From Gammaproteobacteria bacterium (lineage in GTDB: Bacteria > Pseudomonadota > Gammaproteobacteria > Tethybacterales > Persebacteraceae), in the NCBI GenBank assembly GCA_965221835.1, contig OZ244916.1, forward strand, positions 329,947-393,946: a DNA stretch of 64,000 bases. Reading direction: 5' to 3'. Under the pieces are notes generated by a model. The model was given only the letters and a program-made list of their open reading frames with translations, ran no database searches and had not been told where the DNA came from. Of this stretch, positions 1-61,538 are shown piece after piece. The stretch's first letter is position 1; each line of letters begins with the position of its first letter. The translations under genes were made by a program, and so were the position numbers.

Positions 1-990
1 ATGAATATAACCATGATAAGCACGGAAAAAATTAGGATTAGAGAATGAACTGAATCTTTCAATCAGTTCAACGGCGATATGGTCCATATACACGGTATAT
101 CCGTCTCTGTTCGTTGTATGCGAATTCGCAACATCCTTAAACGAAAGCGTGTAGGTGAAATTATCCAATCGCACGGTAAAACCAAGATTAAAAAAGAAAG
201 GGGTAAGGTCAAAACTTTCGTTTTCAAATCGTGATGTATCCGGCTCGCAAGATTCAAACACACAAGGCGGAAGATATCGATCTCCAATGACGGGATTAAT
301 CGGCAAAGGCGGTGCGTCCAAAAACGAAGAGAGAGGGGGTTGTGGAATCAGAGTTTCGACAAAGGAATGCGGAGTTCCTTCTAATTCTCGTGTAACGCCC
401 ACTTGCCTCCATAACACCGAACGAAAAACCCTCGCCAATCTTGCATGTTCATCACTTCGCACGGTTTGCGTGACTCCCAAAATATCCGTGTAAATTACTG
501 TAAAACTATAAACATCGCCTTCGTCATAACCGTCGCCGGTATGCCCGATATTGACGGTGACATACGGCAGTTCTCCCTCCCGCCGAATACCCGCAATTTG
601 TACCGAAACACCGCTTACCGTTAATGTATTCGAGCCATAAATACGCAAATCGGCGGTGATATGGTCGCAACCCGATATATCTATAAAAGTACTAATCTGC
701 CTAAAAGTCAAAAAACGGGAATTCGGATGTCCAACATCTATTCCCGCAAAATTTTCTCGGATAACTTCGCCGGTGTGAATATCGGTTTGCTGACATCGCC
801 AATAATATTCGCCTCCTGCTCCCGCAACAATTCCCTCGTCAATTTCGGGGGACGGAAATACAACCGAAACCCGTTGCGAATCGTAATCCAAAGTAAGGTC
901 TACTGCAATATCCCCCGTAAATTGTGCAACCGCATTCCCCGCCCCGCAAAGTGCGAAAGCAGTTGCCAAAATTCTCCACAAAACTCTCAT
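1..990 (-). CDS. Partial CDS: N-terminal ~330 aa of a second giant repeat-adhesin paralog; the gene runs off the left edge of the window
   Basis: Manual reverse-complement translation from the ATG at 990 down to position 1 is open with no stops. It reads MRVLWRILATAFALCGAGNAVAQ... (signal peptide). It aligns block by block with the N-terminus of the 3653-aa protein at 37577 (YYWRC / YFWRC, GCDHI / KCDHI, GIRREGELPYVTVNIGHTGDGYDEGDVYSFTVIYTD vs GVRREGNPPHVTVNIDHIGDGYTEGDVYSFNVVYTD, ESCEPD vs ESCETE, YMDHIAVE vs YLDHFAVR). The ORF track omits it because no stop lies inside the window. Confidence 0.6.
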   Translation of the reverse strand, partial: MRVLWRILATAFALCGAGNAVAQFTGDIAVDLTLDYDSQRVSVVFPSPEIDEGIVAGAGGEYYWRCQQTDIHTGEVIRENFAGIDVGHPNSRFLTFRQISTFIDISGCDHITADLRIYGSNTLTVSGVSVQIAGIRREGELPYVTVNIGHTGDGYDEGDVYSFTVIYTDILGVTQTVRSDEHARLARVFRSVLWRQVGVTRELEGTPHSFVETLIPQPPLSSFLDAPPLPINPVIGDRYLPPCVFESCEPDTSRFENESFDLTPFFFNLGFTVRLDNFTYTLSFKDVANSHTTNRDGYTVYMDHIAVELIERFSSFSNPNFFRAYHGYIH

Positions 991-34262: not shown

Positions 34263-36239
34263 ATGTCTCTGCAACGGGGCGGAATTTCCTCCGCCGAAGA
34301 TCTGTTGACGCGCTTTCCGATTCGCTACGAAAATTGGCGGGCAACGCAAAGCACAGCGTCTTTGCGCGGCGGCGAAAAGGCGTTGGTGGAAGGAGTCGTG
34401 ACCGATGTTCGCATTCTTCCGCGCCGCAGAGGGCGGCAACTTCTCGCGCATCTGGAAGATGACGAAGGCGGTTATTTAACCGCGCGTTTTTTTCATGTAA
34501 CGCCGGGATTGCAACGGGCGCTTGCTATCGGTGCGCGTTTGCGGCTGATGGGGACGGTCAAATTCGGAAATGGATGGGAAATGGCGCATCCGAAAATTCA
34601 ATTCGCCGATTCCGCCGGCGAAGGCAAAATGCAGGCGATTTACGGTGCGGCGGGCGATTTGTCGCAAGACCGGCGGCGGCGATTGATTATGCAAGCGTTG
34701 GAATTGGTTCCTTCTGCGGACGATATTCCGAAAAGTTTTATGCATTTTACCGGCGGCGAATGGCGTTTTCGCGATGCGCTTTCGCTTGTGCATTTGCCGC
34801 CGCCGGACGACCCGCAACAAATTGAAAAAGTACAAAACGGCGAACATCCGGCATGGCGGCGATTGCGATTTGACGAACTTCTCGCCCATCAAATTGTATT
34901 GCGGGCGATTTACCGGCGGCGCGGGCGAAAAAAAGCCGCGCAAATTCGTCCGCCGCCAGAATGGGATTCGGCATTGCGCGCGGCGTTGCCGTTTACGCCG
35001 ACCGCCGCACAACAACGGGCGATGGACGAAATTGCCGAAGATTTACGCGGTTCGCGCCCGATGCGGCGATTGTTGCAAGGCGATGTCGGCAGCGGCAAAA
35101 CGCTGGTCGCCGCATTCGCCTGTCTCGCCGCAGCAAAAAGCGGACGGCTGGCGGTATTGATGGCGCCGACCGAAATTTTGGCATATCAACATTACGAAAC
35201 ATTATCGGCATTTTTTCGTACTTCGGGCGTGCAGTGCGAGTTATTTGTCGGCGGCATTCGCGGTGCAAAACGGCGCGAAGCGTTGGCGCAACTGCGTCTC
35301 GGATTGTCGCACATCGCAATCGGCACACACGCGCTTTTTTACAAAGAAAAAAATATGCCGCCGGTCGCGCTGGCGGTGATAGACGAACAACATCGTTTCG
35401 GCGTAGAACAACGCGCCGCATTATCGGCGGCGGGCAATACGCATCAATTGATGATGTCGGCGACTCCGATTCCGCGTACTTTGGCAATGAGTGCGTTTGC
35501 CGATGTAGACATTAGCGTTTTGGACGAGTTGCCGCCCGGACGAATGCCGGTAGCGACCCGTCTGGTACCTCGCCGCCGCCGTGACGAAGTATTGGCACGA
35601 ATCGAAGCGCAAGAAGGGGCTGCCTATTGGGTTTGTCCGCGCATTGAAGAATCGGACGACGATTTGCAAGATGTATTTTCGCTTTTAGAAAAAGTGCGAA
35701 AAAATCACCCGAATTTGTCGCCGGAAGTTTTGCACGGGCGATTGTCGGCGGCAGAAAAACGGGACGCGATAGACCGTTTTCGTGCCGGAAAATCGCGTTT
35801 TTTGGCAGCAACGACCGTCATAGAAGTCGGCGTGGATGTGCCGCAAGCGGATGTGATGGTGGTAGAACACGCCGAACGAATGGGGCTTTCGCAATTGCAT
35901 CAGTTGCGTGGCAGAGTGGGGCGAGGCGGTCGCGCCGGGGTATGCATTTTGTTGTACGAGGATGATTTGTCGGACGAAGCAAAAGCGCGATTGAAAATTT
36001 TGCACGAAACATCGGACGGTTTTAAGGTTGCCGAACATGATTTGCGATTGCGCGGTCCGGGCGAATGGCTGGGCACACGGCAAAGCGGTTTACCGCCGTT
36101 TCGCGTTGCGCGTCTCGGCGAAGACGCAGATTTAATCGCCATCGCCGGACGCACCGCCGAATGGCTTCTGAACAACGATTTACGCACCTGCATCCGCCAA
36201 ATCCGCCGCTGGATTCCCCGCCACCGCCCACGCGATTGA
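34263..36239 (+). CDS. recG: ATP-dependent DNA helicase RecG
   Basis: Walker A GDVGSGKTLVA, DExH (VIDEQHRFGV), helicase motif VI QLRGRVGRG. The ORF-track N-terminal extension (from 33762) was rejected. Start at MSLQRGG. Confidence 0.9.
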   Translation: MSLQRGGISSAEDLLTRFPIRYENWRATQSTASLRGGEKALVEGVVTDVRILPRRRGRQLLAHLEDDEGGYLTARFFHVTPGLQRALAIGARLRLMGTVKFGNGWEMAHPKIQFADSAGEGKMQAIYGAAGDLSQDRRRRLIMQALELVPSADDIPKSFMHFTGGEWRFRDALSLVHLPPPDDPQQIEKVQNGEHPAWRRLRFDELLAHQIVLRAIYRRRGRKKAAQIRPPPEWDSALRAALPFTPTAAQQRAMDEIAEDLRGSRPMRRLLQGDVGSGKTLVAAFACLAAAKSGRLAVLMAPTEILAYQHYETLSAFFRTSGVQCELFVGGIRGAKRREALAQLRLGLSHIAIGTHALFYKEKNMPPVALAVIDEQHRFGVEQRAALSAAGNTHQLMMSATPIPRTLAMSAFADVDISVLDELPPGRMPVATRLVPRRRRDEVLARIEAQEGAAYWVCPRIEESDDDLQDVFSLLEKVRKNHPNLSPEVLHGRLSAAEKRDAIDRFRAGKSRFLAATTVIEVGVDVPQADVMVVEHAERMGLSQLHQLRGRVGRGGRAGVCILLYEDDLSDEAKARLKILHETSDGFKVAEHDLRLRGPGEWLGTRQSGLPPFRVARLGEDADLIAIAGRTAEWLLNNDLRTCIRQIRRWIPRHRPRD

Positions 36240-36249
36240 TTGCAAAAGA

Positions 36250-36290
36250 AAACGGCGGCGGGAATCTCTTCCCATCCGCCGTTTTTGTTT
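36250..36290. terminator. Bidirectional rho-independent terminator between recG and the convergent hypothetical gene
   Basis: aaaacggcggcgggaatctcttcccatccgccgtttttgttttc: a GC stem (acggcgg / ccgccgt) followed by a T-run. Confidence 0.5.
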
Positions 36291-36300
36291 TCGGTTTATG

Positions 36301-36981
36301 TCAGACGATAACCGCTTTTTCCGTCATTGACCAGGGACCCCGTCCCGCCGAATTTTCGTACGCGACTTTTAAGAACGCGTTCATTCCAACTTCGGGTTCG
36401 GTAAACATCACCGTAAACCGCCCTCGCCCGATATAATCCATCGGATGAAAATCGCCGTCCGTCGGTTCTGTTCCTTGCGGCAAAACTGCAATTTGTCTTG
36501 CAACTTTCGTATTTCTCGGCAATGCAACACGATTTACGCCTTCGGTCGTCTGCATTGTCGTATCAAAAGTCAAAGCCATCGCCCGCCGGTCAACCAAAAC
36601 CAAAGTCGGTGCATCGGTCGGAACTTCGGCGGGTGTTCGTGTTGTTTTGTCTTCGTGAATAAACAAATGCAAATAATCGTCCGTTGTCAGCGTCACCATT
36701 CCATTTTTTATTGCCTGCCGTAGCGGCAAAACGAAAGTGTACGCCGCATCGTCCATTTCCCGCATTTCCCGTATTGCTTTCGGTCCGTGCGTGTCGGGGT
36801 CAATATAATTGTTATATGCCGTCTGAAAGGCGGAATTGAAATTAATCAAACTCGTCACCTGTTCAGCAGTCACACCGAGTCGGGTTGCATTTTCGCTTGG
36901 AACGCCGCCCGTGTCGGAGAGATATTGCACCATAGATAATAATTCCGCCCAATGTTCGGCGTATCGTTGTGATAAACGCAT
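36301..36981 (-). CDS. Hypothetical cytoplasmic protein (226 aa), divergent neighbour of the giant adhesin gene; contains the only canonical DUS in the window
   Basis: Good SD (aaggag) before MRLSQRY. No signal peptide or known domain. ATGCCGTCTGAA occurs at 36816-36827 inside the CDS. Confidence 0.5.
   Translation of the reverse strand: MRLSQRYAEHWAELLSMVQYLSDTGGVPSENATRLGVTAEQVTSLINFNSAFQTAYNNYIDPDTHGPKAIREMREMDDAAYTFVLPLRQAIKNGMVTLTTDDYLHLFIHEDKTTRTPAEVPTDAPTLVLVDRRAMALTFDTTMQTTEGVNRVALPRNTKVARQIAVLPQGTEPTDGDFHPMDYIGRGRFTVMFTEPEVGMNAFLKVAYENSAGRGPWSMTEKAVIV
36816..36827 (+). other. Neisseria 12-mer DNA uptake sequence (AT-DUS, ATGCCGTCTGAA)
   Basis: Exact match read directly from the sequence. 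No further exact copies or other DUS dialects were spotted by eye elsewhere in the window. Confidence 0.6.
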
Positions 36982-37084
36982 GATTTTTCTCCTTTTGTGT
37001 TGATTAATAAAATAAGCGTTGCAGCGATTAAAACACGATTCTGCACAAATTGCGAAAGTTTTTACATTAGCATGCCATTTTGCT

Positions 37085-37255
37085 ACACAAAAGTTTGCAT
37101 TTACAGTGTAAAGACATGAAATAACAGTGTAAATAATTGCAGTACGGCATAGGAATGTGCATGAACAGTGTTGCAATTTGCAAGAACAGTGTAGTAATTT
37201 GCAGTGTCAGTATTGCAATTTGCATGTGCTGTGTAGCAAAATGCTCGATCAATGT
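37085..37255. promoter_or_regulatory. AT-rich control region upstream of the giant gene with about 6 iteron-like ~22-bp direct repeats (consensus nACAGTGTwrynAATTTGCA)
   Basis: The repeats are tacagtgtaaagacatg, aacagtgtaaataattgcagt, gaacagtgttgcaatttgcaag, aacagtgtagtaatttgcagtg, tcagtattgcaatttgcatgtg and ctgtgtagcaaaatgc. The region 36985-37575 is far more AT-rich than its surroundings. A near-consensus ttgaca-N15-tataat lies at 37545-37569. Confidence 0.4.
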
Positions 37256-37576
37256 AAGAATTTGCCGAATTAATGCGGGAATTCATAGATTTATGCGTTT
37301 CAGACGCCGAATTACTGCGGAAAATAAAAGTGCAGGCGATGAACGGGTTTTGTATGAGAGTTTTGCCGTCCTATCCGCTGACATTTCTGCCCCGCCTGCA
37401 ACGGATTCGTAAAAATGATGCCGTCCGGATATATTATATTCAATCAAGTTCCACTTGCGACACGAGAATCAGCAAGATGACGAGGAAAATAAAGCCGATA
37501 TACATCCCTTTCATTTGGCGGAGATTATAGCATTAAATATCGTTGACAAGTCAAACTATCTGCTATAATTCCGCCC

Positions 37577-40500
37577 ATGAGATTTTTCCGGCGAATTTTG
37601 GCGATTCTTTTCGCCCTTTGCGGGGCGGAGGCGGCATTATCGCAAGAAATTACGATTAGTTTGGATGTTGCGGCAAAACAGATAACGGTTTTATCGCCGA
37701 GACCGACAAGGCAATTTAGATATTTTTGGCGGTGTGCGGAAACTAACCCTATCACAGGCGATGAAATCGAACTTGAATTTCTTCAGCGGGATACAAACCT
37801 ACCAAATTCTCAATTTTTAACTTTCGCCGAAATTGAAGAACATCTTAACGATAATATCAAATGCGATCATATTTCTTTGGCTTATGTGAGAAATGCTAAT
37901 GAAGTAATACGCAGCAATACTCTCCGAATTGTGGGCGTGCGGCGAGAAGGAAATCCGCCGCATGTCACCGTCAACATTGACCATATCGGCGATGGATATA
38001 CCGAAGGCGATGTTTATAGTTTCAATGTGGTATACACGGATTTATTTGGAGTCGTGCAAACCGTACGCAACGATGAAGAAGAAAGATTTAATGAGGTTTT
38101 TGGAAATGTGCAGTGGTTTAAGACGGGAATTAGAAGCAAGGATAACTTGATTGCATTTCCGTCATCTTCGTCTACTGATAATCTTTTTGTAAATCCGCCC
38201 TCTCCGTTTCCAGAAAGAAGATTTATTTTTTTACCAGTACGGGATATTGAATGTACGGGCGAATCTTGCGAAACTGAACTTATGCCGACATTGGGCGATG
38301 CCATAGCATATCAACCGATTGAAAGCCCGCCTCCACCACAATATCCTCATACCTATACACTATCGCACAGTCATTTTTCCGATTCGTACTACACCAGAGA
38401 TAACGGAGAAATAATATATTTAGACCATTTCGCCGTTCGGATAACAGACAAATGGGAACACACAGAACAACCATTTTCGGGGCTAACGCAATATGGAGTT
38501 TCTTGGGGATTTATTCCGAGAAACGAACCGACCGAAGTTTCTCAACTGGAACTTTATAGGAGTATTGACCCGTTCCAATTTTCCGGAACTCCGGCAGAAG
38601 AACCAGTTTCTTTCGGCGAATTTGCATTCGGTAGCGATAAAGAAAAACTTTACAACTTATTCAGCATTTCCGGAGACCTCAACAATGGCATTAAGCAAAG
38701 TACCAGATTTATATGGCAACACCGGATTAACGGCGGCGAATGGATAACTACGGAAGATGAAAGGATTGTCAGAGGAACTTATTTTACAAGTCCCGATCAT
38801 TTTGTCGGGGCGAAAATAGGGGACGAAATTCAAATTCGTGGCATATTGGATGTTGAAGACGGATGGGGATTGCGAAACTATTTATTTTCGCCCACATTAT
38901 CGCACACCGATATGCCGCCGACGGGAGATATGCAATTCATAGAGACCGGATTGCATGCAGAAGCGACGATAACCACCTCGCTGGATGAAATAGAAGACCC
39001 GGACGGAGAAATTGATGTACTTTCCTATCGTTGGCAAGCGGGAAATGGTACGGTTTTTACCGATGTACTTTTTCAAGAATATGATGAGGCAAACCGGAGA
39101 TTATTTGCCGACAGTATTAGAAATGTTCCGTACATTTTGGACGCATCCGTTTTCAATCAAGAAGGCAACAGCGGAATGCGAGTAATTGCGGAATTGACCG
39201 ACTCATTTTTTGGGCAGGCAACTATAACTTCCGGTTTCTTTCTGGTGAATCCCCCGACCGAAGGAACCGTTTCCATAAACGGCAATCCGTTATTTTCGGA
39301 CGGCGAAATATACACATTAACGAATGTTGACGAATTAACGGACGGCAACGGAATCGGCAGATTTAGTTATTCATGGTATGTAAGCATAGACGGCGGCAAT
39401 AGTTATGACAGAAGAGGGGCTTTTGGTACAACTTTCACATTAAAAGCATCTCACATTGCAGAGGCAAATGCAGATACGCCCGTATTGTTGCGTGCCGATG
39501 TGGTACATACCGATGCGGACAGATACACACAAACGCTTGTGGCTTTTTTTGAACAAAATTTTCCGACACAAGGCGAAATCACAATTGACGGCAATCCGAT
39601 GTTTGCGGCGGGCGAAATATACACCGCAATCACCGCCGAATTATCGGACAGCAACGAAATCGGCGGATTTACTTATCAATGGCTTGTGAGTTTTGATGAC
39701 GGCAATAACTATAATGAAATTGCGGGCGAGACGGGAGAAACTTACACGGCGGACACGGCGGATTTTGCGGGGGCGAATCCGAACACGCCGATATTTTTGG
39801 GCGTTTCGGCGGTGCATACCGATTTGGACGGCTACGCACAAACGATTACGGCATTTTTGGAACAGGATCTTCCGACACAAGGCGATATTGTTTTGAATGC
39901 TATTGCGAATCCTTTGGTGCTTGGCGAAGTCAAGTTTTCGGTGAATGTTGACGCATTGACGGACGGCAACGACATCGGCGATTTTGCATATCAATGGTTT
40001 GCGAGTATTGCCCGTGGTGCAGATTACAATCCGATTTCGGCGGCGACCGACAGATCGTACATATTGGACCGGTCGGATTTTGCGGGGGCGGCGGCGAATG
40101 AACCGGTGCGAATTTCGGTTTCGGTTGTGCATACCGATTTGGCGGGATATGAACAATCGTTCGGAGATTTTTTCGTGCAGAATCCTCGGACAGAAGGCGA
40201 GATAACAATTGACGGCAATCCGATGTTTGCGGACGGCGAAATATACACCGCAATCACTGCCGCATTATCGGACAGAAACGGAATCGGCGATTTTACTTAT
40301 CAATGGGTTATAAGTTTTGACGGCGGCAACAACTATAACACTAACGGAATTTTGGGAATCGATTCTACTTACACTTTGCGGGCGGAAGATATTGCGAATG
40401 CCGATGAAAACATTCCCGCCCTGCTGGGTGTTGCGGCGGTGCATACCGATTTGGACGGAAACACACAAACGTTAACGGCATCTTTTTTGCAAGATATTGC

Positions 40501-43500
40501 CGGCACAGGCAGCGTTTCAATTTCGGGTGCGAATTCATTTGCGGCGGGCGAAAAATATACAGCGATAACAAACATTGCGGATGCAAACGGAATCAGCGTT
40601 TTCGTTTATTCATGGCATGCAAGTACGGACGGCGGAAATAACTATACGCAAATAACAGATGCGAATTCGGAATCGTACACGCTTGCATTGTCAGATTTTG
40701 CCGGTGCAACTTCGGCGAATCCGGTGCATCTTTTGCTTTCAGTTGTGCATACCGACATGGGCGGATTTTCGGAGTTTTATTTGGCAACGCTAATTCATTC
40801 CGACACGGCGGCGGGTGGAAGTTTGGGAATTGAAATTCAAAACGGCGTAATTGCGGAAGATGCGATTGTGGAATTAAATACGGCGGGAATTTCGGACATA
40901 AACGGCGGGGGAATCGTTTCGCATTCGTGGCATTTGGATAACGGTGCGGCGATTGTCGGCGAAACTTCGGCGACTTATATTTTGTCATCGGCGAATTTAA
41001 CTTTGTCGGAAATTCGCAACGGCGTTTTACATTCGGAAGTTTTATATCGGGATTCGTTCGGTTATGAAACAAGATTTTCCATCACGCTATTCGGCGAAGG
41101 CGATGATGAAGAATACGATCCGGACAATCCGAATGAGTTGGATTCTATGGGAACGGGAACGGTTGCGATTTCGGGAACGATTTCGTTTGCGGCGAATGAA
41201 AGATATACGGCGGACATTTCGCAAATCGCTCCGAATGACGCAAACGGCGAAGGAGATTTCGCATATTCATGGCATACGAGTACGGACGGCGGAACGAATT
41301 ACAATTTAATATCGGGTGCGAATTCGGAATCGTACACGCTTGCATTGTCGGATTTTTCCGGTGCAACTTCGGCGAATCCGGTGCATCTTTTGCTTTCGGT
41401 TGTGCATACCGATTTCGGCGGATTTGATCAAAGTTATCTGGCGACTTTGATTCATTCCGACACGGCGGCGGGCGGAAGTTTGGGAATCGGAATTCAAAGC
41501 GGCGTAATTGCAGAAGGTGCGATTGTGGAATTAAACACGGCGGGAATTTCGGACATAAACGGCGGCGGAATCATTTCGCATTCGTGGCATTTGGATAACG
41601 GTGCGGCGATTGTCGGTGCAACGGCGGCGACTTATATTTTGTCATCGGCGAATTTAACTTTGTCGGAAATTCGCAACGGCGTTTTACATTCGGAAGTTTT
41701 ATATCGGGACGATTTCGGTTATGAAACGAGATTTTCCATCACGCTATTCGGCGAAGGCGATGATGAAGAATACGATCCGGACAATCCGAATGAGTTGGAT
41801 TCTTTGGGAACGGGAACGGTTGCGATTTCGGGAACGATTTCGTTTGCGGCGAATGAAAAATATACGGCGGACATTTCGGACATCGCTCCGAATGATGCAA
41901 ACGGCAAAGGGACTTTTACATATTCATGGCATACGAGTACGGACGGCGGAAATAACTATACGCAAATCACGGGGGCGACATTGGAGTTGTATACGCTTGC
42001 ATTGTCGGATTTTGCGGGTGCGAATGCGAATGCGGAAGTGCATTTGCGAGTTTCGGTTGTGCATACCGATTTCGGCGGATTTGATCAAAGTTATCTGGCG
42101 ACTTTAATTCATTCCGACACAGCGGCGGGTGGAAGTTTGGGAATTGGCATTCGGGACGGAATCATCGCCGAAGATGCGGTTGTGGAATTAGACACGGCGG
42201 GAATTTCGGACATAAACGGCGGGGGAATCGTTTCGCATTCGTGGCATTTGGATAACGGTGCGGCGATTGTCGGTGCGACTGCGGCGACTTATACATTGCA
42301 AGCGGCGAATTTAACTTTGTCGGAAATTCGCAACGGCGTTTTACATTCGGAAGTTTTGTATCGGGATTCGTTCGGCTATGAAACAAGATTTTCCATCACG
42401 CTATTCGGCGAAGGCGATGATGAAGAATACGATCCGAACAATCCGAATGAGTTGGATTCTTTGGGCACGGGAACGGTTGCGATTTCGGGGACGATTTCGT
42501 TTGCGGCGAATGAAAGATATACGGCGGACATTTCGGACATCGCTCCGAATGACGCAAACGGCAAAGGAGATTTCGCATATTCATGGCATACGAGTACGGA
42601 CGGCGGAACGAATTACGATTTAATTTCGGGGGCGACATTGGAGTTGTATACGCTTGCGTTGTCGGATTTCGCCGGTGCGAATGCGAATGCGGAAGTGCAT
42701 TTGCGAGTTTCGGTTGTGCATACCGATTTCGGCGGATTTGATCAAAGTTATCTGGCAACTTTGATTCATTCCGACACGGCGGCGGGCGGAAGTTTGGGAA
42801 TTGAAATTCAAAGCGGCGTAATTGCCGAAGATGCGATTGTGGAATTAGACACGGCGGCGATTTCGGACATAAACGGCGGCGGAATCGTTTCGCATTCATG
42901 GCATTTGGATAACGGTGCGGCGATTGTCGGCGCAACGGCGGCGACTTATATTTTGTCATCGGCGAATTTAACTTTGTCGGAAATTCGCAATGGCGTTTTA
43001 CATTCGGAAGTTTTATATCGGGATTCGTTCGGTTATGAAACGAGATTTTCCATCACACTATTCGGCGAAGGCGATGATTCCGTCTCGCCGAATCCCGATG
43101 ATCCGAATCGTCCCGGCACGACGACAAATCCGGTTGACCCCGGCGACAATCCGGGCGGCGAAGATCCGGACAATCCGGGAAACATTTTCGGCACAGGCAG
43201 CGTTTCAATTTCGGGTGCGAATTCATTTGCGGCGGGTGAGAAATATACAGCGATAACGAACATTGCGGATGCAAACAGAATCGGTACGGTTTCATATTCA
43301 TGGCAAGCGAGTACGGACGGCGGAACGAATTACAATTTAATAACGGATGCGAATTCGGAATCGTACACGCTTGCGTTGTCAGATTTTTCCGGTGCAACTT
43401 CGGCAAATCCGGTGCATCTTTTGCTTTCAGTTGTGCATACCGACATGGGCGGATTTTCGGAGTTTTATCTGGCAACTTTGATTCATTCCGACACAGCGGC

Positions 43501-46500
43501 GGGCGGAAGTTTGGGAATTGAAATTCAAAGCGGCGTAATTGCGGAAGGTGCGGTTGTGGAATTAGACACGGCGGGAATTTCGGACATAAACGGCGGGGGA
43601 ATCGTTTCGCATTCGTGGCATTTGGATAACGGTGCGGCGATTGTCGGCGAAACTTCGGCGACTTATATTTTGTCATCGGCGAATTTAACTTTATCGGAAA
43701 TTCGCAACGGCGTTTTACATTCGGAAGTTTTATATCGGGATTCGTTCGGTTATGAAACAAGATTTTCCATCACGCTATTCGGCGAAGGCGATGATGAAGA
43801 ATACGATCCGGACAATCCGAATGAGTTGGATTCTTTGGGCACGGGAACGGTTGCGATTTCGGGAACGATTTCGTTTGCGGCGAATGAAAAATATACGGCG
43901 GACATTTCGGACATCGCTCCGAATGATGCAAACGGCAAAGGGACTTTTACATATTCATGGCACACGAGTACGGACGGCGGAACGAATTACAATTTAATAT
44001 CGGATGCGAATTCGGAATCGTACACGCTTGCATTGTCGGATTTTGCGGGTGCGAATGCGAATGCGGAAGTGCATTTGCGAGTTTCGGTTGTGCATACCGA
44101 TTTCGGCGGATTTGATCAAAGTTATCTGGCAACTTTGATTCATTCCGACACAGCGGCGGGCGGAAGTTTGGGAATTGAAATTCAAAGCGGCGTAATTGCC
44201 GAAGATGCGATTGTGGAATTAGACACGGCGGGAATTTCGGACATAAACGGCGGGGGAATCGTTTCGCATTCGTGGCATTTGGATAACGGTGCGGCGATTG
44301 CCGGCGAAACTTCGGCGACTTATACTTTGCAAGCGGCGAATTTAACTTTGTCGGAAATTCGCAATGGCGTTTTACATTCGGAAGTTTTGTATCGGGATGA
44401 TTTCGGTTATGAAACAAGATTTTCCATCACACTATTCGGCGAAGGCGATGACGAAGAATACGATCCGGACAATCCGAATGAGTTGGATTCTATGGGAACG
44501 GGAACGGTTGCGATTTCGGGGACGATTTCGTTTGCGGCGAATGAAAAATATACGGCGGACATTTCGGACATCGCTCCGAATGATGCAAACGGCAAAGGGA
44601 CTTTTACATATTCATGGCATGCGAGTACGGACGGCGGAACGAATTACGATTTAATTTCGGGGGCGACATTGGAGTTGTATACGCTTGCGTTGTCGGATTT
44701 TGCCGGTGCGAATGCGAATGCGGAAGTGCATTTGCGAGTTTCGGTTGTGCATACCGATTTCGGCGGATTTGATCAAAGTTATCTGGCGACTTTGATTCAT
44801 TCGGATACGGCGGCGGGCGGAAGTTTGGGAATCGGAATTCGGGACGGAATCATCGCCGAAGATGCGGTTGTGGAATTAGACACGGCGGGAATTTCGGACA
44901 TAAACGGCGGGGGAATCGTTTCGCATTCATGGCATTTGGATAACGGTGCGGCGATTGTCGGCGAAACTTCGGCGACTTATATTTTGTCATCGGCGAATTT
45001 AACTTTGTCGGAAATTCGCAACGGCGTTTTACATTCGGAAGTTTTATATCGGGATTCGTTCGGTTATGAAACGAGATTTTCCATCACACTATTCGGCGAA
45101 GGCGATGATTCCGTCTCGCCGAATCCCGATGATCCGAATCGTCCCGGCACGACGACAAATCCGGTTGACCCCGGCGACAATCCGGGCGGCGAAGATCCGG
45201 ATAATCCGGGAAACATTTTCGGCACAGGCAGCGTTTCAATTTCGGGTGCGAATTCATTTGCGGCGGGTGAGAAATATACAGCGATAACAAACATTGCGGA
45301 TGCAAACAGAATCGGTACGGTTTCATATTCATGGCAAGCGAGTACGGACGGCGGAACGAATTACAATTTAATAACGGATGCGAATTCGGAATCGTACACG
45401 CTTTCGCTGGCGGATTTTGCCGGTGCAACTTCGGCAAATCCGGTGCATCTTTTGCTTTCAGTTGTGCATACCGACATGGGCGGATTTTCGGAGTTTTATC
45501 TGGCAACTTTGATTCATTCCGACACGGCGGCGGGCGGAAGTTTGGGAATTGAAATTCAAAATGGCGTAATTGCGGAAGATGCGATTGTGGAATTAGACAC
45601 TGCCGGAGTTTCGGACATAAACGGCGGGGGAATCGTTTCGCATTCGTGGCATTTGGATAACGGTGCGGCGATTGTCGGGGCGGATGCGGCGACTTATACA
45701 TTGCAAGCGGCGAATTTAACTTTGTCGGAAATTCGCAACGGCGTTTTACATTCGGAAGTTTTATATCGGGATTCGTTCGGTTATGAAACAAGATTTTCCA
45801 TCACGCTATTCGGCGAAGGCGATGATGAAGAATACGATCCGAACAATCCGAATGAGTTGGATTCTATCGGCACGGGAACGGTGGCGATTTCGGGAACGAT
45901 TTCGTTTGCGGCGAATGAAAAATACACGGCGGACATTTCGGACATCGCTCCGAATGATGCAAACGGCGAAGGAGATTTCGCATATTCATGGCATGCGAGT
46001 ACGGACGGCGGAACGAATTACGATTTAATTTCGGGGGCGACATTGGAGTTGTATACGCTTGCGTTGTCGGATTTTGCCGGTGCGAATGCGAATGCGGAAG
46101 TGCATTTGCGAGTTTCGGTTGTGCATACCGATTTCGGCGGATTTGATCAAAGTTATCTGGCAACTTTGATTCATTCCGACACGGCGGCGGGCGGAAGTTT
46201 GGGAATTGTCGCCGCCGGTTTGATGGCGGGCGATTTGGTGACGGCGGATGCGGCGGGATTGACGGACGCAAACGGGGCGTTGACAATTTCATATCGCTGG
46301 CAAACGGGCGAACGAAATACGCCGGAAAGTTTTGCGGATCTTGTCGGCGAAACGGAAGCGGTTTATACAATTTATGCGGATGATTATGATTCCGATTCGC
46401 GAGATTCGTTGCGGCTGATTGCAAGAACGGCGGATCCGTTCGGCGGCGAGACGCAAATTACGAGTGCGATATTGCCGATCAATCGCGAAACCGAAGGGCG

Positions 46501-48538
46501 AATTTCGTTGGAGTTGGTCGGCGGAGAAATTGTTGCGGGGGCGACGATACGATTGCGGACGGATGCGGTATCGGATGAAAACGGCGGCGGTTTTGAAAAA
46601 TATTATTGGTTTATAAACGATCTTTTGTTGATGGAAGAAAATGACGATTTTCTTGTCGTGCGGTCGGATGATTTGCGCGATATTGCGGCGGGCGGATTGC
46701 GGGCGGAGGCGAAGTATGTTGACGGAATCGGATTTACCGTTCGGTTGTCGGCGAGATTGATTGCTGCCGGTATTGTCGCACCGTCGCCGGAAGAAATCGC
46801 GAATTGGTCGGTCGTTATAGAAACCGAAGGCGTTGCGTTCGGCGAGGATTTGGCACGGGCGAATTTGATTGGCGCGGAACAATCGGATTATTACGAAGTT
46901 TTCTATCGCTGGCGAACAGGCGTTGGCATCGCTTTTGCCGATGAAAGGAATGTCGGCGGCGTTGGCAACTATCATCAGTTGGAAGCGGCGAATTTTAATC
47001 CGCAAGATCATTTGCGGGCGATTGCCGAAGTGGAGTTATTGTCCGGCGCTTTTGTCACGCTTACTTCGGCGCCGGTGCAAATTGATTATCCGTCTATCGG
47101 TGCGGTGCGAATTGTCGCCGGCGAGTTGCTGGCGCCGGGGGTTGTGGTCAGTGCGGATATTTCTGATGTGCGGGATGCGAATGGCGGCATAAACGTTGTT
47201 TCTGAAAGATGGTTGTATGCAGATACGCCTGTTGCGATGGCGCGCAGTTATACCTTAACCGAAGAAGCGGTGCATGCCGGAAAAGTTTTTTATGAGGCGA
47301 TTTTTGCGGACGCTGCCGGTTTTCGTACATCGTTGCGGGCGGAAGCAAATGTGGGAGGCGAAGTATCATCCGAAAAAGCCGAAGCAATAATTGGTGCGGT
47401 CAATGCAGCGGCGATTGACGGATTGTGGAACGCGTTGGAGGGGCATTTGGATAGCGAAGCCGGATGGCGTGCGAATGGTGCGCCGATTGAAGATCCATCG
47501 CAAATCGCCGCGGCATTGTCGCGCCGTGATGAAAATTCTTTGCATCCCGATTCGCCGTTTGCGTTGGATTCGTTTGCGTTGAAAGAATCGGGCGGCGAGG
47601 CGGGTGAAGAATGGTCGTGGTGGGCGCACGGGTCGCGGAGTAGATTGAAAGGAAAGCCGATTATCGACGGCGAGGAAGTAAAATATCACGGCGATTATGC
47701 ATCTTTTCATGCGGGAATGGATCGGCAAATCAGCGACACGATGCGCGCCGGACTCGCTTTCGGTGCGGACGATGCGGATTTGGATGTGGAATGGCGCAAA
47801 GGCGTAGACGGACGGTTGCGGCAGAATATTCGTTCGCTGATTCCATATACGGAATGGCGTCCGGATGATTTGACGAATGTGCGCATATTGGCGGGCTACG
47901 GCGAAGGCGATATTTATTTGGCGGAACACGATAACGCATCCAGGGCATCCGCCCGCCGGACATTGTTCGGCATTCGCGCCGCCCGCCGCAAAGATTTGGC
48001 GGACAATTTTGATATTACTTTTTCGGGCGGATTTGACAAAACGCGTCTGCAAACGGGCGCGATTGATTTGCCCGGATTGCAAGATGATTTGGACGCCCGC
48101 ACGAAAGAAACACATGCGCGAGTGAGAGGTGGACATATTTCATTGTTGCCGGCAAAAGGATCATTGCACAAAGAAATAAGTTTGCGTTGGCGTTCGCAAT
48201 CAGTAGCGGGCGACAGAGATAGCGTTTTTGATTTCGGCATCGGATTTAATGCGACATTGCCGGAATATTTTCTTTCGTTCGGGGCGGACGGCGAACGGCA
48301 ACTAACCGACTCGGCACACGAACGAAATCGTTTCGGCGTTTATATCGCCTACGGTGCCGGACGATTTGCGCATATTTTGGAAACCCGTTATGACAACGAA
48401 ATAGCGTTACCACAAAATCGCTGGCAAATTAACACCGTTTCAGAATGGGGCGTCAGCGAACTTCTCACCGGCGTTTATGTGGAACATAACGGCAACGCAG
48501 ATCTTAGAATCGGCTGGGAATCTAATCTTCTGTTTTAA
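37577..48538 (+). CDS. Giant (3653 aa) secreted repeat protein: signal peptide, unique N-terminal domain, diverged ~110-aa modules, about 9 near-identical ~219/238-aa tandem repeats, and a ~330-aa C-terminal autotransporter-like beta-domain ending in Phe
   Basis: One uninterrupted 10.96 kb ORF. Signal peptide MRFFRRILAILFALCGAEA-ALS. Repeat blocks (...GTGTVAISGTISFAANEKYTADISDIAPNDANGKG.F.YSWH.STDGG.NY...VHLRVSVVHTDFGGFDQSYLATLIHSDTAAGGSLGIEIQSGVIAEDAIVELDTAGISDINGGGIVSHSWHLDNGAAIVG..SATY.L..ANLTLSEIRNGVLHSEVLYRDSFGYETRFSITLFGEGDDEEYDPDNPNELDS) are identical except at scattered residues. The C-terminus (...WSWWAHGSRSRLKG... to ...IGWESNLLF) resembles the start and end of type Va autotransporter barrels. 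Confidence 0.8.
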   Translation: MRFFRRILAILFALCGAEAALSQEITISLDVAAKQITVLSPRPTRQFRYFWRCAETNPITGDEIELEFLQRDTNLPNSQFLTFAEIEEHLNDNIKCDHISLAYVRNANEVIRSNTLRIVGVRREGNPPHVTVNIDHIGDGYTEGDVYSFNVVYTDLFGVVQTVRNDEEERFNEVFGNVQWFKTGIRSKDNLIAFPSSSSTDNLFVNPPSPFPERRFIFLPVRDIECTGESCETELMPTLGDAIAYQPIESPPPPQYPHTYTLSHSHFSDSYYTRDNGEIIYLDHFAVRITDKWEHTEQPFSGLTQYGVSWGFIPRNEPTEVSQLELYRSIDPFQFSGTPAEEPVSFGEFAFGSDKEKLYNLFSISGDLNNGIKQSTRFIWQHRINGGEWITTEDERIVRGTYFTSPDHFVGAKIGDEIQIRGILDVEDGWGLRNYLFSPTLSHTDMPPTGDMQFIETGLHAEATITTSLDEIEDPDGEIDVLSYRWQAGNGTVFTDVLFQEYDEANRRLFADSIRNVPYILDASVFNQEGNSGMRVIAELTDSFFGQATITSGFFLVNPPTEGTVSINGNPLFSDGEIYTLTNVDELTDGNGIGRFSYSWYVSIDGGNSYDRRGAFGTTFTLKASHIAEANADTPVLLRADVVHTDADRYTQTLVAFFEQNFPTQGEITIDGNPMFAAGEIYTAITAELSDSNEIGGFTYQWLVSFDDGNNYNEIAGETGETYTADTADFAGANPNTPIFLGVSAVHTDLDGYAQTITAFLEQDLPTQGDIVLNAIANPLVLGEVKFSVNVDALTDGNDIGDFAYQWFASIARGADYNPISAATDRSYILDRSDFAGAAANEPVRISVSVVHTDLAGYEQSFGDFFVQNPRTEGEITIDGNPMFADGEIYTAITAALSDRNGIGDFTYQWVISFDGGNNYNTNGILGIDSTYTLRAEDIANADENIPALLGVAAVHTDLDGNTQTLTASFLQDIAGTGSVSISGANSFAAGEKYTAITNIADANGISVFVYSWHASTDGGNNYTQITDANSESYTLALSDFAGATSANPVHLLLSVVHTDMGGFSEFYLATLIHSDTAAGGSLGIEIQNGVIAEDAIVELNTAGISDINGGGIVSHSWHLDNGAAIVGETSATYILSSANLTLSEIRNGVLHSEVLYRDSFGYETRFSITLFGEGDDEEYDPDNPNELDSMGTGTVAISGTISFAANERYTADISQIAPNDANGEGDFAYSWHTSTDGGTNYNLISGANSESYTLALSDFSGATSANPVHLLLSVVHTDFGGFDQSYLATLIHSDTAAGGSLGIGIQSGVIAEGAIVELNTAGISDINGGGIISHSWHLDNGAAIVGATAATYILSSANLTLSEIRNGVLHSEVLYRDDFGYETRFSITLFGEGDDEEYDPDNPNELDSLGTGTVAISGTISFAANEKYTADISDIAPNDANGKGTFTYSWHTSTDGGNNYTQITGATLELYTLALSDFAGANANAEVHLRVSVVHTDFGGFDQSYLATLIHSDTAAGGSLGIGIRDGIIAEDAVVELDTAGISDINGGGIVSHSWHLDNGAAIVGATAATYTLQAANLTLSEIRNGVLHSEVLYRDSFGYETRFSITLFGEGDDEEYDPNNPNELDSLGTGTVAISGTISFAANERYTADISDIAPNDANGKGDFAYSWHTSTDGGTNYDLISGATLELYTLALSDFAGANANAEVHLRVSVVHTDFGGFDQSYLATLIHSDTAAGGSLGIEIQSGVIAEDAIVELDTAAISDINGGGIVSHSWHLDNGAAIVGATAATYILSSANLTLSEIRNGVLHSEVLYRDSFGYETRFSITLFGEGDDSVSPNPDDPNRPGTTTNPVDPGDNPGGEDPDNPGNIFGTGSVSISGANSFAAGEKYTAITNIADANRIGTVSYSWQASTDGGTNYNLITDANSESYTLALSDFSGATSANPVHLLLSVVHTDMGGFSEFYLATLIHSDTAAGGSLGIEIQSGVIAEGAVVELDTAGISDINGGGIVSHSWHLDNGAAIVGETSATYILSSANLTLSEIRNGVLHSEVLYRDSFGYETRFSITLFGEGDDEEYDPDNPNELDSLGTGTVAISGTISFAANEKYTADISDIAPNDANGKGTFTYSWHTSTDGGTNYNLISDANSESYTLALSDFAGANANAEVHLRVSVVHTDFGGFDQSYLATLIHSDTAAGGSLGIEIQSGVIAEDAIVELDTAGISDINGGGIVSHSWHLDNGAAIAGETSATYTLQAANLTLSEIRNGVLHSEVLYRDDFGYETRFSITLFGEGDDEEYDPDNPNELDSMGTGTVAISGTISFAANEKYTADISDIAPNDANGKGTFTYSWHASTDGGTNYDLISGATLELYTLALSDFAGANANAEVHLRVSVVHTDFGGFDQSYLATLIHSDTAAGGSLGIGIRDGIIAEDAVVELDTAGISDINGGGIVSHSWHLDNGAAIVGETSATYILSSANLTLSEIRNGVLHSEVLYRDSFGYETRFSITLFGEGDDSVSPNPDDPNRPGTTTNPVDPGDNPGGEDPDNPGNIFGTGSVSISGANSFAAGEKYTAITNIADANRIGTVSYSWQASTDGGTNYNLITDANSESYTLSLADFAGATSANPVHLLLSVVHTDMGGFSEFYLATLIHSDTAAGGSLGIEIQNGVIAEDAIVELDTAGVSDINGGGIVSHSWHLDNGAAIVGADAATYTLQAANLTLSEIRNGVLHSEVLYRDSFGYETRFSITLFGEGDDEEYDPNNPNELDSIGTGTVAISGTISFAANEKYTADISDIAPNDANGEGDFAYSWHASTDGGTNYDLISGATLELYTLALSDFAGANANAEVHLRVSVVHTDFGGFDQSYLATLIHSDTAAGGSLGIVAAGLMAGDLVTADAAGLTDANGALTISYRWQTGERNTPESFADLVGETEAVYTIYADDYDSDSRDSLRLIARTADPFGGETQITSAILPINRETEGRISLELVGGEIVAGATIRLRTDAVSDENGGGFEKYYWFINDLLLMEENDDFLVVRSDDLRDIAAGGLRAEAKYVDGIGFTVRLSARLIAAGIVAPSPEEIANWSVVIETEGVAFGEDLARANLIGAEQSDYYEVFYRWRTGVGIAFADERNVGGVGNYHQLEAANFNPQDHLRAIAEVELLSGAFVTLTSAPVQIDYPSIGAVRIVAGELLAPGVVVSADISDVRDANGGINVVSERWLYADTPVAMARSYTLTEEAVHAGKVFYEAIFADAAGFRTSLRAEANVGGEVSSEKAEAIIGAVNAAAIDGLWNALEGHLDSEAGWRANGAPIEDPSQIAAALSRRDENSLHPDSPFALDSFALKESGGEAGEEWSWWAHGSRSRLKGKPIIDGEEVKYHGDYASFHAGMDRQISDTMRAGLAFGADDADLDVEWRKGVDGRLRQNIRSLIPYTEWRPDDLTNVRILAGYGEGDIYLAEHDNASRASARRTLFGIRAARRKDLADNFDITFSGGFDKTRLQTGAIDLPGLQDDLDARTKETHARVRGGHISLLPAKGSLHKEISLRWRSQSVAGDRDSVFDFGIGFNATLPEYFLSFGADGERQLTDSAHERNRFGVYIAYGAGRFAHILETRYDNEIALPQNRWQINTVSEWGVSELLTGVYVEHNGNADLRIGWESNLLF
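40500..46210 (+). repeat. Intragenic tandem array: about 9 copies of a 657-bp unit (two copies 714-717 bp with an added Pro/Asp-rich linker), >95% identical, arranged as a ~2031-bp higher-order repeat
   Basis: The antisense and alternate-frame ORFs in the supplied track recur with identical sequence at fixed spacing (41719/42376/43750/44407; 41064/42378/43752/45783; 43033..43263 = 45064..45294; 43053..43760 = 45084..45791; 43300..43521 = 45331..45552). Older diverged ~330-bp repeats precede the array at 39230-40500. Confidence 0.85.
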
Positions 48539-48639
48539 TATATTCCGAAAATTTTTTTCGGCGGTTTTGCTTTTTTAAGATATTCCGAAAATTTTTTTTT
48601 CGGCGATTTTGTTTTTTTAAGATATTCCGAAATCCCCGC

Positions 48640-48830
48640 CGTCATTTTCGCGAAAGCGGGAATTTATTCGGGGAAATTAATTTTGGAATTTTCGCGCATT
48701 TTTTTGTGAAAAACGGCGTGAACGCGGGGATTTGTCGGTGAAAATGGATTCCCGCGTTCGCGGGAATGACGGGGTTTTTCGCGGAATTGCCACAAAAAAC
48801 GGCGGGGATTCGGAATCCCGCCGGTTTTTA
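48640..48830. repeat. NIME/dRS3 repeat block downstream of the giant gene, ending in a bidirectional terminator hairpin
   Basis: dRS3 attcccgcgttcgcgggaat (~48750) and the RS unit shared with 1170-1260 and 17120-17200. The hairpin aaaaacggcggggattcggaatcccgccggtttttatttg at 48797-48832 has T-runs on both strands. Confidence 0.55.
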
Positions 48831-61535: not shown

Positions 61536-61538
61536 GAA

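What the first reader, a model, noticed from the sequence alone, without database searches (positions are those of the whole stretch)
37577..48538. 11-kb gene for a 3653-aa autotransporter-like adhesin carrying about 9 near-identical 657-bp tandem repeats
The ORF is unbroken for 10,962 bp, has a clean Sec signal peptide, and ends in Phe after a ~330-aa region beginning ...EEWSWWAHGSRSRLKG..., the pattern seen at type Va autotransporter barrel starts. Between 40.5 and 46.2 kb the DNA is a head-to-tail array of 657-bp units that are almost base-identical. The ORF track shows this as the same antisense mini-ORFs recurring at 657- or 1314-bp spacing. Such long perfect repeats are hotspots for RecA-mediated expansion and contraction. 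The protein length is therefore probably variable between strains and cells, which would give length/antigenic variation of a surface adhesin. The repeat modules (YSWHxSTDGGxNY ... VHTDFGGF ... SHSWHLDNGAAIVG) do not match any family I can name from memory, so this may be an uncharacterised repeat fold.
Basis: partly seen in the sequence, partly recalled or inferred. Interest (0 to 1): 0.8.

Follow-up and report, generated by a model that had tools for sequence, protein, structure and literature searches.

The report
Giant variable-length Ig-chain autotransporter adhesin
This 11-kb gene encodes a 3653-residue outer-membrane-anchored surface protein, a chain of about 26 immunoglobulin-like domains on a C-terminal autotransporter barrel, and its repeat number differs between closely related strains, which makes it an unusual version of a known kind of variable-length bacterial adhesin.

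Summary
The ORF (37577-48538, +, 3653 aa) is real. It has a signal peptide and ends in a beta-domain that passes Pfam PF03797 (autotransporter) when the C-terminus is scanned alone. The model's best PDB matches are EstA, Hbp, NalP, AIDA-I and BrkA.

The array has 8 full units plus one half unit, with a period of 657 or 717 nt. The units are 80-96% identical and strongly mosaic, not "near-identical".

Each unit is two Ig-like beta-sandwich domains. This is an ordinary fold, although no Pfam family matches the sequence.

Length variation is supported directly. In 17 homologues, several from genomes with flanks 98-99% identical to the window, the number of full units runs from 2 to 8. The last 775 aa stay constant in length and 98-99.6% identical.

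The two genes diverge around a 36.6-kb segment that appears in both orientations among co-occurring strains (3 versus 3).

Verdict: a "Periscope"-type variable-length adhesin with classical (Va) topology but a passenger built like those of inverse autotransporters, from an uncultured, poorly represented proteobacterial lineage. It is a new variant of a known kind and of moderate interest.

The parts
37577..37642 (+). Signal peptide, aa 1-22 (MRFFRRILAILFALCGAEAALS|Q)
   Evidence: Translation shows a positive n-region, an 11-residue hydrophobic core and A-x-S before the cut. The same layout is found in all homologues. No signal-peptide predictor was run.
37643..38920 (+). N-terminal head, aa 23-448; no recognisable family; the variable tip of the protein
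   Evidence: No Pfam hit and no PDB sequence hit. In one search, 'head' means everything N-terminal of domain S1 (about aa 1-555, signal peptide included); heads so defined fall into at least 5 types, 45-100% identical.
38921..39256 (+). Weakly detected Ig-like domain, aa 449-560
   Evidence: The self-built domain HMM gives a weak match at aa 449-539.
39257..40501 (+). Four diverged single Ig-like domains S1-S4, aa 561-975, about 103 aa each
   Evidence: Self-HMM scores of 132-148 bits each. YxW...DGG...VHTD motifs. Their number varies among homologues.
40502..45868 (+). Tandem array of 8 full double-domain units (A+B), aa 976-2764; unit starts at nt 40502, 41150, 41807, 42464, 43190, 43838, 44495, 45221
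   Evidence: Period 657/717 nt, 80-96% nt identity, mosaic (Rm >= 25). Each unit models as two beta-sandwiches.
45869..46183 (+). Truncated ninth unit (A domain only), aa 2765-2869
46187..47347 (+). Membrane-proximal region aa 2871-3257: three diverged Ig-like domains detected (C1 2871-2966, C2 2972-3065, C4 3173-3257) and an undetected gap (aa 3066-3172) where a fourth would fit
   Evidence: Self-HMM hits at 2871-2966, 2972-3065 and 3173-3257. This region is part of the 775-aa tail that is 98-99.6% identical in all homologues.
47348..47602 (+). Linker with a long alpha-helix, aa 3258-3342
   Evidence: The AlphaFold2 model has a helix at residues 31-57 of the 419-aa segment, which is aa 3265-3291, with pLDDT about 90.
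47603..48538 (+). C-terminal beta-barrel (autotransporter beta-domain), aa 3343-3653, plus the stop codon; ends in Phe
1..990 (-). 5' end (first 330 codons) of the second paralogue (P0014, 2836 aa), which runs off the left edge of the window; divergent to the main gene, with start codons 36.6 kb apart
   Evidence: tblastn gives 100% identity to P0014 aa 1-330. P0014 and the window protein are on the same 1,984,335-bp contig.
48533..48632 (+). 42-nt direct repeats (2.4 copies), each with a CCGAAAA(T)nCGG hairpin followed by a T-run; probable terminators just after the stop codon
36248..37576 (.). Variable upstream cassette: a 226-aa ORF on the minus strand (36301-36981; weak HTH_PafC match), 21-nt direct repeats (37150-37239), TTGACA (37543-37548), a 15-nt spacer and TATAAT (37564-37569), which lies 7 nt before the ATG
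   Evidence: The cassette is present only here and in ctg52279. Other genomes have mosaics of short dispersed repeats in its place.

Best explanation
The gene encodes a monomeric, classical-topology (type Va-like) autotransporter.

Proposed pathway:
1. Sec exports the precursor.
2. The C-terminal ~310 aa insert as an outer-membrane beta-barrel.
3. The N-terminal ~3300 aa are threaded to the surface. There they fold, domain by domain, into a beaded stalk of about 26 Ig-like beta-sandwich domains, with a family-specific ~430-aa head at the far end.

The stalk contains a tandem array of ~219-aa double-domain units. Their DNA is similar enough (80-96% identity, exact stretches up to 181 nt) for homologous recombination. 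Unequal crossing-over adds and removes units, and gene conversion shuffles segments between them. Stalk length, and so the reach of the head, therefore differs between strains, as in 'Periscope' proteins.

A second paralogue lies 36.6 kb away in inverted orientation. It shares the stalk units and a nearly identical 775-aa tail but has a different head. Recombination between the two genes homogenises the tails and inverts the segment between them.

Shown here: the architecture, the barrel family, the Ig-like fold, the copy-number polymorphism, the mosaicism, and both orientations of the segment.
Inferred: surface exposure, adhesive function, the recombination pathway, and the order of folding.
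For: ORF and repeats:
- The ORF and the repeat array are confirmed.

Barrel:
- PF03797 passes its cut-off on the C-terminal 419 aa and is precomputed on the fragment P0022.
- An exhaustive phmmer search finds 164 relatives, all matching at their C-terminal end. Several of them carry PF03797, and one has six Big_12 Ig-like domains plus PF03797.

Stalk:
- The unit models as two 7-stranded beta-sandwiches. Its best matches are tandem Ig-like or FN3 stalk domains of the giant adhesins GhpA and MpIBP, and 6xi3.
- A self-built HMM finds 23 strong and 3 weaker-but-significant domain copies, plus a marginal one at aa 449-539, strung head to tail.

Variation:
- Full units per protein number 2-8 across 17 homologues, and the order of unit types differs. 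The 775-aa tail has a fixed length.
- The alleles at the recG locus, P0002 (7 units) and P0004 (6 units), sit in genomes whose flanks are 98-99% identical to the window, which has 8 units.
- Among the 8 units, 2663 of 6555 site pairs fail the four-gamete test, and Rm >= 25.
- Tails are 98.3-99.6% identical; heads are 45-100% identical.

Inversion:
- The recG-side gene is followed by sox genes in three assemblies and by polyprenyl synthase/obg/L27/L21 in two. The GlnA-side gene is followed by sox in two assemblies.

Literature:
- The Periscope class is defined by highly identical tandem repeat domains whose number varies between strains (PMC9704523).
Against: - No experiment shows surface display or binding.
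- The passenger is not the beta-helix found in characterised Va adhesins, and no autochaperone is recognisable.
- The model's barrel region shows about 16 DSSP strands over 308 aa rather than a clear 12, with lower confidence in the last 80 residues.
- A whole-protein Pfam scan did not report PF03797.
- Units are only 80-96% identical, so the rate of expansion and contraction may be modest.
- Copy-number and orientation differences come from metagenome assemblies. No reads were available to confirm them.
Confidence: 0.75

Rival explanations
1. The copy-number differences and the two orientations are assembly artefacts. The assembler collapsed, expanded or mis-joined long repeats in a mixture of strains, and the real gene has a fixed length.
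For: All homologues come from metagenome assemblies. Four strain-level contigs come from one sample, ERZ25072152. The two paralogues share several kb of 90-99% identical sequence in inverted orientation, which is a classic cause of mis-joins. I could not inspect any reads.
Against: - Units differ by 4-20% and each has its own mosaic pattern, so they can be told apart.
- Contig names of the form ctgN_coverage-x_l/c, sizes of 1.3-2.0 Mb and one circular contig suggest accurate long reads. That reading of the names rests on my own knowledge.
- Each protein is an intact ORF with a complete tail.
- Both orientations recur in separate samples (versus 23, 74).
Confidence: 0.1
2. The protein is surface-anchored as described but is not an adhesin. 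The long Ig-like chain could serve as a spacer or protective coat, or as a tether for capturing prey or a host cell, like the Aureispira grappling-hook protein GhpA.
For: The best Foldseek hit of the unit is GhpA (9flw, 9fls). The head has no recognisable binding domain. The organism is unknown and has a small (~2.0 Mb) genome.
Against: The fold match is to generic tandem Ig-like domains (12-14% identity), not to GhpA specifically. As far as I know, GhpA uses a different secretion route (type IX) and has no C-terminal autotransporter barrel. Divergent heads on a conserved stalk are the usual layout of adhesins.
Confidence: 0.15
3. The C-terminal domain is a general outer-membrane anchor barrel, or one with more than 12 strands, and the passenger reaches the surface by a route other than classical autotransport.
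Confidence: 0.1

Closest known systems
Classical (type Va) autotransporter adhesins, e.g. AIDA-I, Ag43, ShdA
   Same: Sec signal peptide, a single polypeptide, a C-terminal PF03797 beta-domain ending in Phe, and a helix before the barrel. ShdA also varies in repeat number (PMC9704523).
   Different: The passenger is a chain of about 26 Ig-like beta-sandwich domains, not a beta-helix, and no autochaperone is recognisable. Reviews describe Va passengers as usually beta-helical (PMC6555100). Neither the 2012 survey nor the 2022 classification mentions an Ig-like passenger class. The barrel sequence is longer, and the model does not show a clear 12 strands.
Inverse (type Ve) autotransporters: intimin, invasin, YrInv/YrIlm
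   Same: A long stalk of tandem Ig-like domains with a distinct distal head; the repeat number is highly variable; passenger export is thought to be driven by sequential folding of the Ig-like domains (PMC6555100; PMC9704523).
   Different: The topology is reversed. Here the barrel is C-terminal and belongs to PF03797, and the head is N-terminal. There are no Big_1/Big_2, LysM or inverse-autotransporter barrel hits.
Periscope proteins (SasG, Rib, SGO_0707 and others; Whelan et al., reviewed in PMC9704523)
   Same: A single-chain surface protein whose stalk is made of tandem repeat domains longer than 50 residues with high DNA identity, and whose repeat number differs between closely related strains.
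   Different: Unit identity is lower (80-96%) than in the most extreme Periscope examples. The anchor is a Va-type barrel. The organism is uncultured. A paired, inverted paralogue shares the stalk.
Giant T1SS RTX adhesins with BIg extender regions (MpIBP, LapA-type)
   Same: The tandem Ig-like extender domains are among the best structural matches to the unit (4p99, 5irb, 6xi3).
   Different: No RTX repeats and no other family typical of RTX/T1SS adhesins are reported in the whole-protein Pfam scan. The C-terminus is a barrel instead.
Uncharacterised database proteins with Ig-like repeats plus PF03797, e.g. P0030 (6x Big_12 + Autotransporter), P0024 (6519 aa) and P0025 (4911 aa)
   Same: The same barrel family (24-35% identity) and an Ig-like chain passenger. 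P0024 and P0025 share the ~200-aa double-domain periodicity, with copies up to 99-100% identical.
   Different: None of them is named or studied. The window protein's Ig-like domains match no Pfam model, whereas P0030's are Big_12.

Membership tests
Type Va (classical) autotransporter | N-terminal Sec signal peptide | tested here: met
   MRFFRRILAILFALCGAEAALS|QE has n/h/c regions and A-x-S before the cut (inspection). The layout is conserved in homologues. No predictor was run.
Type Va (classical) autotransporter | C-terminal beta-domain matching PF03797 above the gathering score | tested here: met
   45.7 bits against a cut-off of 26, E = 8.9e-12, on the last 419 aa. Precomputed on the fragment P0022. 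Not reported when the whole 3653-aa protein was scanned.
Type Va (classical) autotransporter | 12-stranded barrel with an alpha-helical linker in the pore | tested here: inconclusive
Type Va (classical) autotransporter | C-terminal aromatic residue (beta-signal) | tested here: met
   The protein ends ...LRIGWESNLLF. Most relatives end in F or W.
Type Va (classical) autotransporter | Beta-helical passenger with an autochaperone (usual, but not obligatory) | tested here: not met
   The passenger is made of Ig-like beta-sandwich domains. No pertactin or autochaperone family is hit.
Periscope proteins | Tandem repeat domains longer than 50 residues with high identity between repeats | tested here: met
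   Eight units of 216-242 aa, 80-96% nt and 75-95% aa identity. This is lower than 'near-identical'.
Periscope proteins | Repeat number varies between closely related strains | tested here: met
   2-8 full units among homologues. At the recG locus the count is 8, 7 or 6 in genomes whose flanks are 98-99% identical. This is assembly-level evidence only.
Periscope proteins | Rod-like stalk that projects a functional tip from the cell surface | not testable with these tools
   Only a two-domain model is available, and its interdomain geometry is uncertain (pTM 0.48).
Inverse (type Ve) autotransporter | N-terminal barrel with a C-terminal passenger of Big_1/Big_2 domains | tested here: not met
   The barrel is C-terminal. 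The N-terminal 608 aa match no family, and no Big_1 or Big_2 hit appears.
T1SS RTX adhesin | RTX nonapeptide repeats and a C-terminal T1SS signal | tested here: not met
   No RTX (HemolysinCabind) hit or other family typical of RTX/T1SS adhesins appears in the Pfam scans. The C-terminus is a barrel.
Pfam K319L-like_PKD (PF22352) | An individual domain matching the model | tested here: not met
   The whole-protein score of 45 bits is a sum with no single stretch passing. Single domains scanned alone give no hit.
NCBIfam ZirU family (NF040485) | Score above the curated cut-off (100 bits) | tested here: not met
   50.7 bits. This is consistent only with a shared Ig-like fold.

The most novel reading that the evidence does not exclude
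The two inverted paralogues and the 36.6-kb segment between them may work as a recurrent, recombination-driven switch. Crossovers in the shared stalk and tail would repeatedly flip the segment and could move stalk units between two different heads. On this reading the protein family would also be a so-far uncharacterised class of Va-type autotransporter, specialised, perhaps through a wider barrel, for exporting chains of Ig-like domains C-to-N, the mirror image of inverse autotransporters.
Probability: 0.25. Interest if true: 0.65.

Novelty: new variant of a known kind. Interest (0 to 1): 0.45.

Why it matters
Current models of type Va secretion rest largely on beta-helical passengers that fold from C to N with the help of an autochaperone. 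A Va-type barrel carrying about 26 Ig-like domains, in a family reaching at least 46 detected domains and 6519 aa, would be a natural test of whether sequential folding of globular domains can drive export in that direction, as has been proposed for inverse autotransporters in the opposite direction.

The locus also shows in one place how a surface protein's length is tuned in a natural multi-strain population: by unit gain and loss, by gene conversion, and by recombination between inverted paralogues. It adds a Gram-negative, environmental, uncultured example to the Periscope class. The Ig-like domain family and the head are not covered by Pfam.

Tried and rejected
- Tandem Repeats Finder did not report the array because its longest period is 500. 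The repeat finder and my own scripts were used instead.
- A whole-protein Pfam scan gave only spurious summed hits (LpxD, MATH, Nebulin) and missed PF03797. Scanning the regions separately was needed.
- NCBIfam gave only a sub-threshold ZirU hit.
- The head gave nothing in Pfam or in PDB sequences.
- The look-up of encoding contigs has no record of the window protein or of P0014.
- Scanning species-representative genomes with the 775-aa tail found no relative.
- Scanning them with LeuS found nothing above about 51% identity, with hits across Alpha-, Beta- and Gammaproteobacteria, so the organism could not be named.
- The word-indexed search with the barrel found only one fragment. The exhaustive search was needed to find relatives.
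- The afdb50 fold library was unavailable.
- Diversifying selection on the units was considered and rejected: dN/dS is 0.17-0.43.
- RTX/T1SS adhesin, inverse autotransporter and two-partner secretion were rejected on architecture.
- Rfam found no RNA element near the gene.
- The promoter scan missed the TTGACA/TATAAT pair upstream because its spacer is 15 nt.
Full report
**Observation**

The window holds one unbroken ORF at 37577..48538 on the + strand, encoding 3653 aa. The N-terminus, MRFFRRILAILFALCGAEAALS|QE, has the three regions of a Sec signal peptide. That is by inspection; no predictor was run. The protein ends ...IGWESNLLF.

The repeat finder and my own scripts show a head-to-tail array from 40502 to about 46183. 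It has eight complete units and a truncated ninth. Start-to-start spacing is 657, 657, 657, 717, 657, 657, 717, 657 nt. The two longer units carry a Pro-rich linker.

Among the eight full units, pairwise nucleotide identity is 80-96% and amino-acid identity 75-95%. The longest exact shared stretch is 181 nt. The array is therefore real, but it is not "almost base-identical". Tandem Repeats Finder missed it only because its longest period is 500.

**Anatomy**

A profile built from the protein's own repeats finds 23 strong copies of a ~100-aa domain and 3 weaker-but-significant ones, strung head to tail, plus a marginal match at aa 449-539:
- four diverged single copies (S1-S4, aa 561-975);
- eight A+B pairs (aa 976-2764);
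- a lone A domain (aa 2765-2869);
- three detected diverged copies before the barrel (aa 2871-3257), with an undetected gap (aa 3066-3172) where a fourth would fit.

Each "657-bp unit" is thus two domains of the same family. The N-terminal ~430 aa (the head) match nothing in Pfam or among PDB sequences.

AlphaFold2 on one unit, with the internal copies as the alignment, gives two 7-stranded beta-sandwiches (pLDDT 74). Foldseek against the PDB returns tandem Ig-like or FN3 pairs. The top hits are:
- fragments of the Aureispira grappling-hook protein GhpA;
- the BIg extender of the Marinomonas ice-binding RTX adhesin;
- 6xi3, a [quoted passage not shown].

The fold is ordinary. The sequence family is not in Pfam: single domains give no hit, and the whole-protein K319L-like_PKD score is a sum of sub-threshold matches.

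**C-terminal domain**

A whole-protein Pfam scan did not report PF03797. The last 419 aa scanned alone hit PF03797 (Autotransporter beta-domain) at E = 8.9e-12 and 45.7 bits, above the cut-off of 26. A 709-aa fragment from another assembly carries the same precomputed annotation.

An exhaustive phmmer search of 1.84 billion representatives found 164 proteins at E <= 0.001, and every match lies at the C-terminal end. Among the relatives checked:
- several carry PF03797;
- one (P0030) has six Big_12 Ig-like domains plus PF03797;
- the nearest large ones (P0024, 6519 aa; P0025, 4911 aa) contain 46 and 29 copies of the window's Ig-like domain, in a ~200-aa double-domain periodicity, with copies up to 99-100% identical.

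A model of the last 419 aa, built with 15 remote relatives, has pLDDT 83 and pTM 0.73. It shows a 27-residue helix followed by a beta-barrel.
- Foldseek ranks EstA, BrkA, Hbp, EspP and NalP first, with TM-scores of only about 0.5.

The model lists about 16 strands over 308 aa, with low confidence in the last 80 residues. I could not verify the canonical 12 strands. Long barrel sequences are known in the AIDA-I group (PMC3419190). I therefore file the protein as Va-like by sequence family and topology, with strand number unresolved.

**Variation**

The word-indexed search found only 17 homologues, all unnamed and all from metagenome assemblies. They range from 2229 to 3677 aa.
- The number of full units runs from 2 to 8.
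- The order of the two unit subtypes, the number of Pro-rich linkers (0-3) and the number of single domains also differ.
- The last 775 aa have exactly the same length wherever the protein is complete.
- Tails are 98.3-99.6% identical. Heads fall into at least five types, 45-100% identical.

Three other loci were aligned to the window. Their flanks are 98-99% identical at the nucleotide level, so these are conspecific or nearly so. The recG-side alleles have 8 (window), 7 (P0002) and 6 (P0004) full units.

Within the window's array, 2663 of 6555 pairs of informative sites fail the four-gamete test, and the minimum number of recombination events is 25. The units have therefore been reshuffled by gene conversion or unequal exchange. 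dN/dS among units is 0.17-0.43, so the stalk is under purifying rather than diversifying selection.

**A second paralogue and an invertible segment**

The first 330 codons of a second family member (P0014, 2836 aa, 3 full units, a different head) lie at window 990..1 on the minus strand and run off the window. Both proteins are on the same 1.98-Mb contig. The two genes are divergent, with start codons 36.6 kb apart.

Across assemblies:
- the recG-side gene is followed by the sarcosine-oxidase genes in the window, ctg52279 and ctg52281;
- it is followed by polyprenyl synthase/obg/L27/L21 in ctg52280 and contig_3;
- the GlnA-side gene is followed by the sox genes in contig_3 and in the circular 1,999,211-bp ctg52285.

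Heads stay with their upstream flanks, and tails exchange their downstream flanks. That is the signature of an inversion by recombination between the inverted genes, here seen 3 versus 3. It also explains why the tails are homogenised. Mis-assembly across the inverted repeats cannot be excluded without reads.

**Context**

The gene lies in a chromosomal neighbourhood: leuS, a CLC channel and recG upstream, and soxBDAG-like genes downstream. Its GC content (0.44-0.49 in the 5' two-thirds) is below that of the flanks (about 0.54).

The hits come from genomes labelled Alpha-, Beta- and Gammaproteobacteria. The tail has no relative in that collection. The organism therefore appears to be an uncultured, poorly represented proteobacterial lineage with a ~2.0-Mb genome. 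Several strains of it co-occur at 66-464x coverage in one sample.

**Comparison with what is known**

The protein works like a Periscope protein: a single-chain surface protein whose stalk of highly similar tandem domains changes length between strains (PMC9704523).

By topology and barrel family it is a classical autotransporter. By passenger architecture it resembles inverse autotransporters, whose Ig-like chains fold sequentially during export (PMC6555100). Reviews describe Va passengers as usually beta-helical. The 2012 survey and the 2022 classification do not mention an Ig-like passenger class. Unstudied database proteins with Ig-like repeats plus PF03797 do exist.

**Verdict**

It is right on the autotransporter and on length variation. 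It is wrong on "near-identical" repeats and on a new fold. It missed the inverted paralogue. This is a new variant of a known kind, of moderate interest (0.45).

Noticed in passing
window 1-990 (minus strand): The 5' end of a second giant paralogue (P0014, 2836 aa, a different head, the same stalk and tail) runs off the left edge of the window. It is divergent to the main gene, with start codons 36.6 kb apart.
   Followed up: yes
window 991-37576 and the flanks; loci L001, L003, L002, L084, L085, L086, L087: The 36.6-kb segment between the two paralogues appears in both orientations relative to the outer flanks (sox genes versus polyprenyl synthase/obg/L27/L21) among related assemblies, 3 versus 3. 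It carries housekeeping genes (carAB, ilvD, leuS, recG).
   Followed up: partly
window 1132-1271, 16493-16632, 17083-17224, 48630-48790; related copies near 61361-61536: A dispersed ~140-nt element with inverted ends (...GTCATTTTCGCGAAAGCGGGAAT...ATTCCCGCGTTCGCGGGAATGAC...) sits next to both adhesin genes and elsewhere. It looks like a MITE or REP element. In other genomes the region upstream of the adhesin genes is a mosaic of such repeats.
   Followed up: partly
L084 versus window ~1.1-16.6 kb: In ctg52281 the ilvD-carAB-greA-DHQase block (window 6697-16629) directly abuts the second paralogue. This implies a further ~15-kb inversion whose ends coincide with oppositely oriented copies of the 140-nt element.
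   Followed up: partly
window 36248-37576: A 1.3-kb cassette upstream of the gene holds a 226-aa ORF on the minus strand (weak HTH_PafC hit, E 0.011) and 4.3 copies of a 21-nt direct repeat (37150-37239). It is present only here and in ctg52279. In ctg52281 the gap between recG and the adhesin gene is only 105 nt.
   Followed up: partly
window 37543-37579 and 991-1003: A TATAAT hexamer lies 7 nt before the ATG, with no Shine-Dalgarno motif. The stretch ...TATAATTCCGCCCATG is shared by the window's two paralogues. Other alleles conserve GTTATAATT six nucleotides before the ATG, but with different intervening bases. In the main gene a perfect TTGACA lies 15 nt upstream of the hexamer. The mRNA may be leaderless.
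   Followed up: no
window 48533-48632: Immediately after the stop codon there are 2.4 copies of a 42-nt repeat, each with a CCGAAAA(T)nCGG hairpin and a T-run. They look like stacked terminators.
   Followed up: no
window 37577-48535 (method note): hmmscan of the whole 3653-aa protein did not report PF03797 and instead listed spurious summed hits (LpxD, MATH, Nebulin). The barrel hit appeared only when the C-terminal 419 aa were scanned alone.
   Followed up: yes
window 36001-46000: GC content of the 5' two-thirds of the gene (0.44-0.49) is below that of the flanking genes (about 0.54), and GC skew is strongly positive across the gene.
   Followed up: no
P0024 (6519 aa), P0025 (4911 aa): Distant relatives (barrel 34-35% identical) have 46 and 29 copies of the same Ig-like domain in ~200-aa double-domain units that are up to 99-100% identical. 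Giant Ig-chain autotransporters with high-identity arrays are therefore a wider, unnamed family.
   Followed up: partly
ENA ERZ25072152 contigs ctg52279, ctg52280, ctg52281, ctg52285: Four strain-level contigs of the same organism (66x to 464x; one circular, 1,999,211 bp) co-occur in one sample, each with different adhesin alleles. The organism has no close relative among the species-representative genomes searched (LeuS at most about 51% identical).
   Followed up: partly
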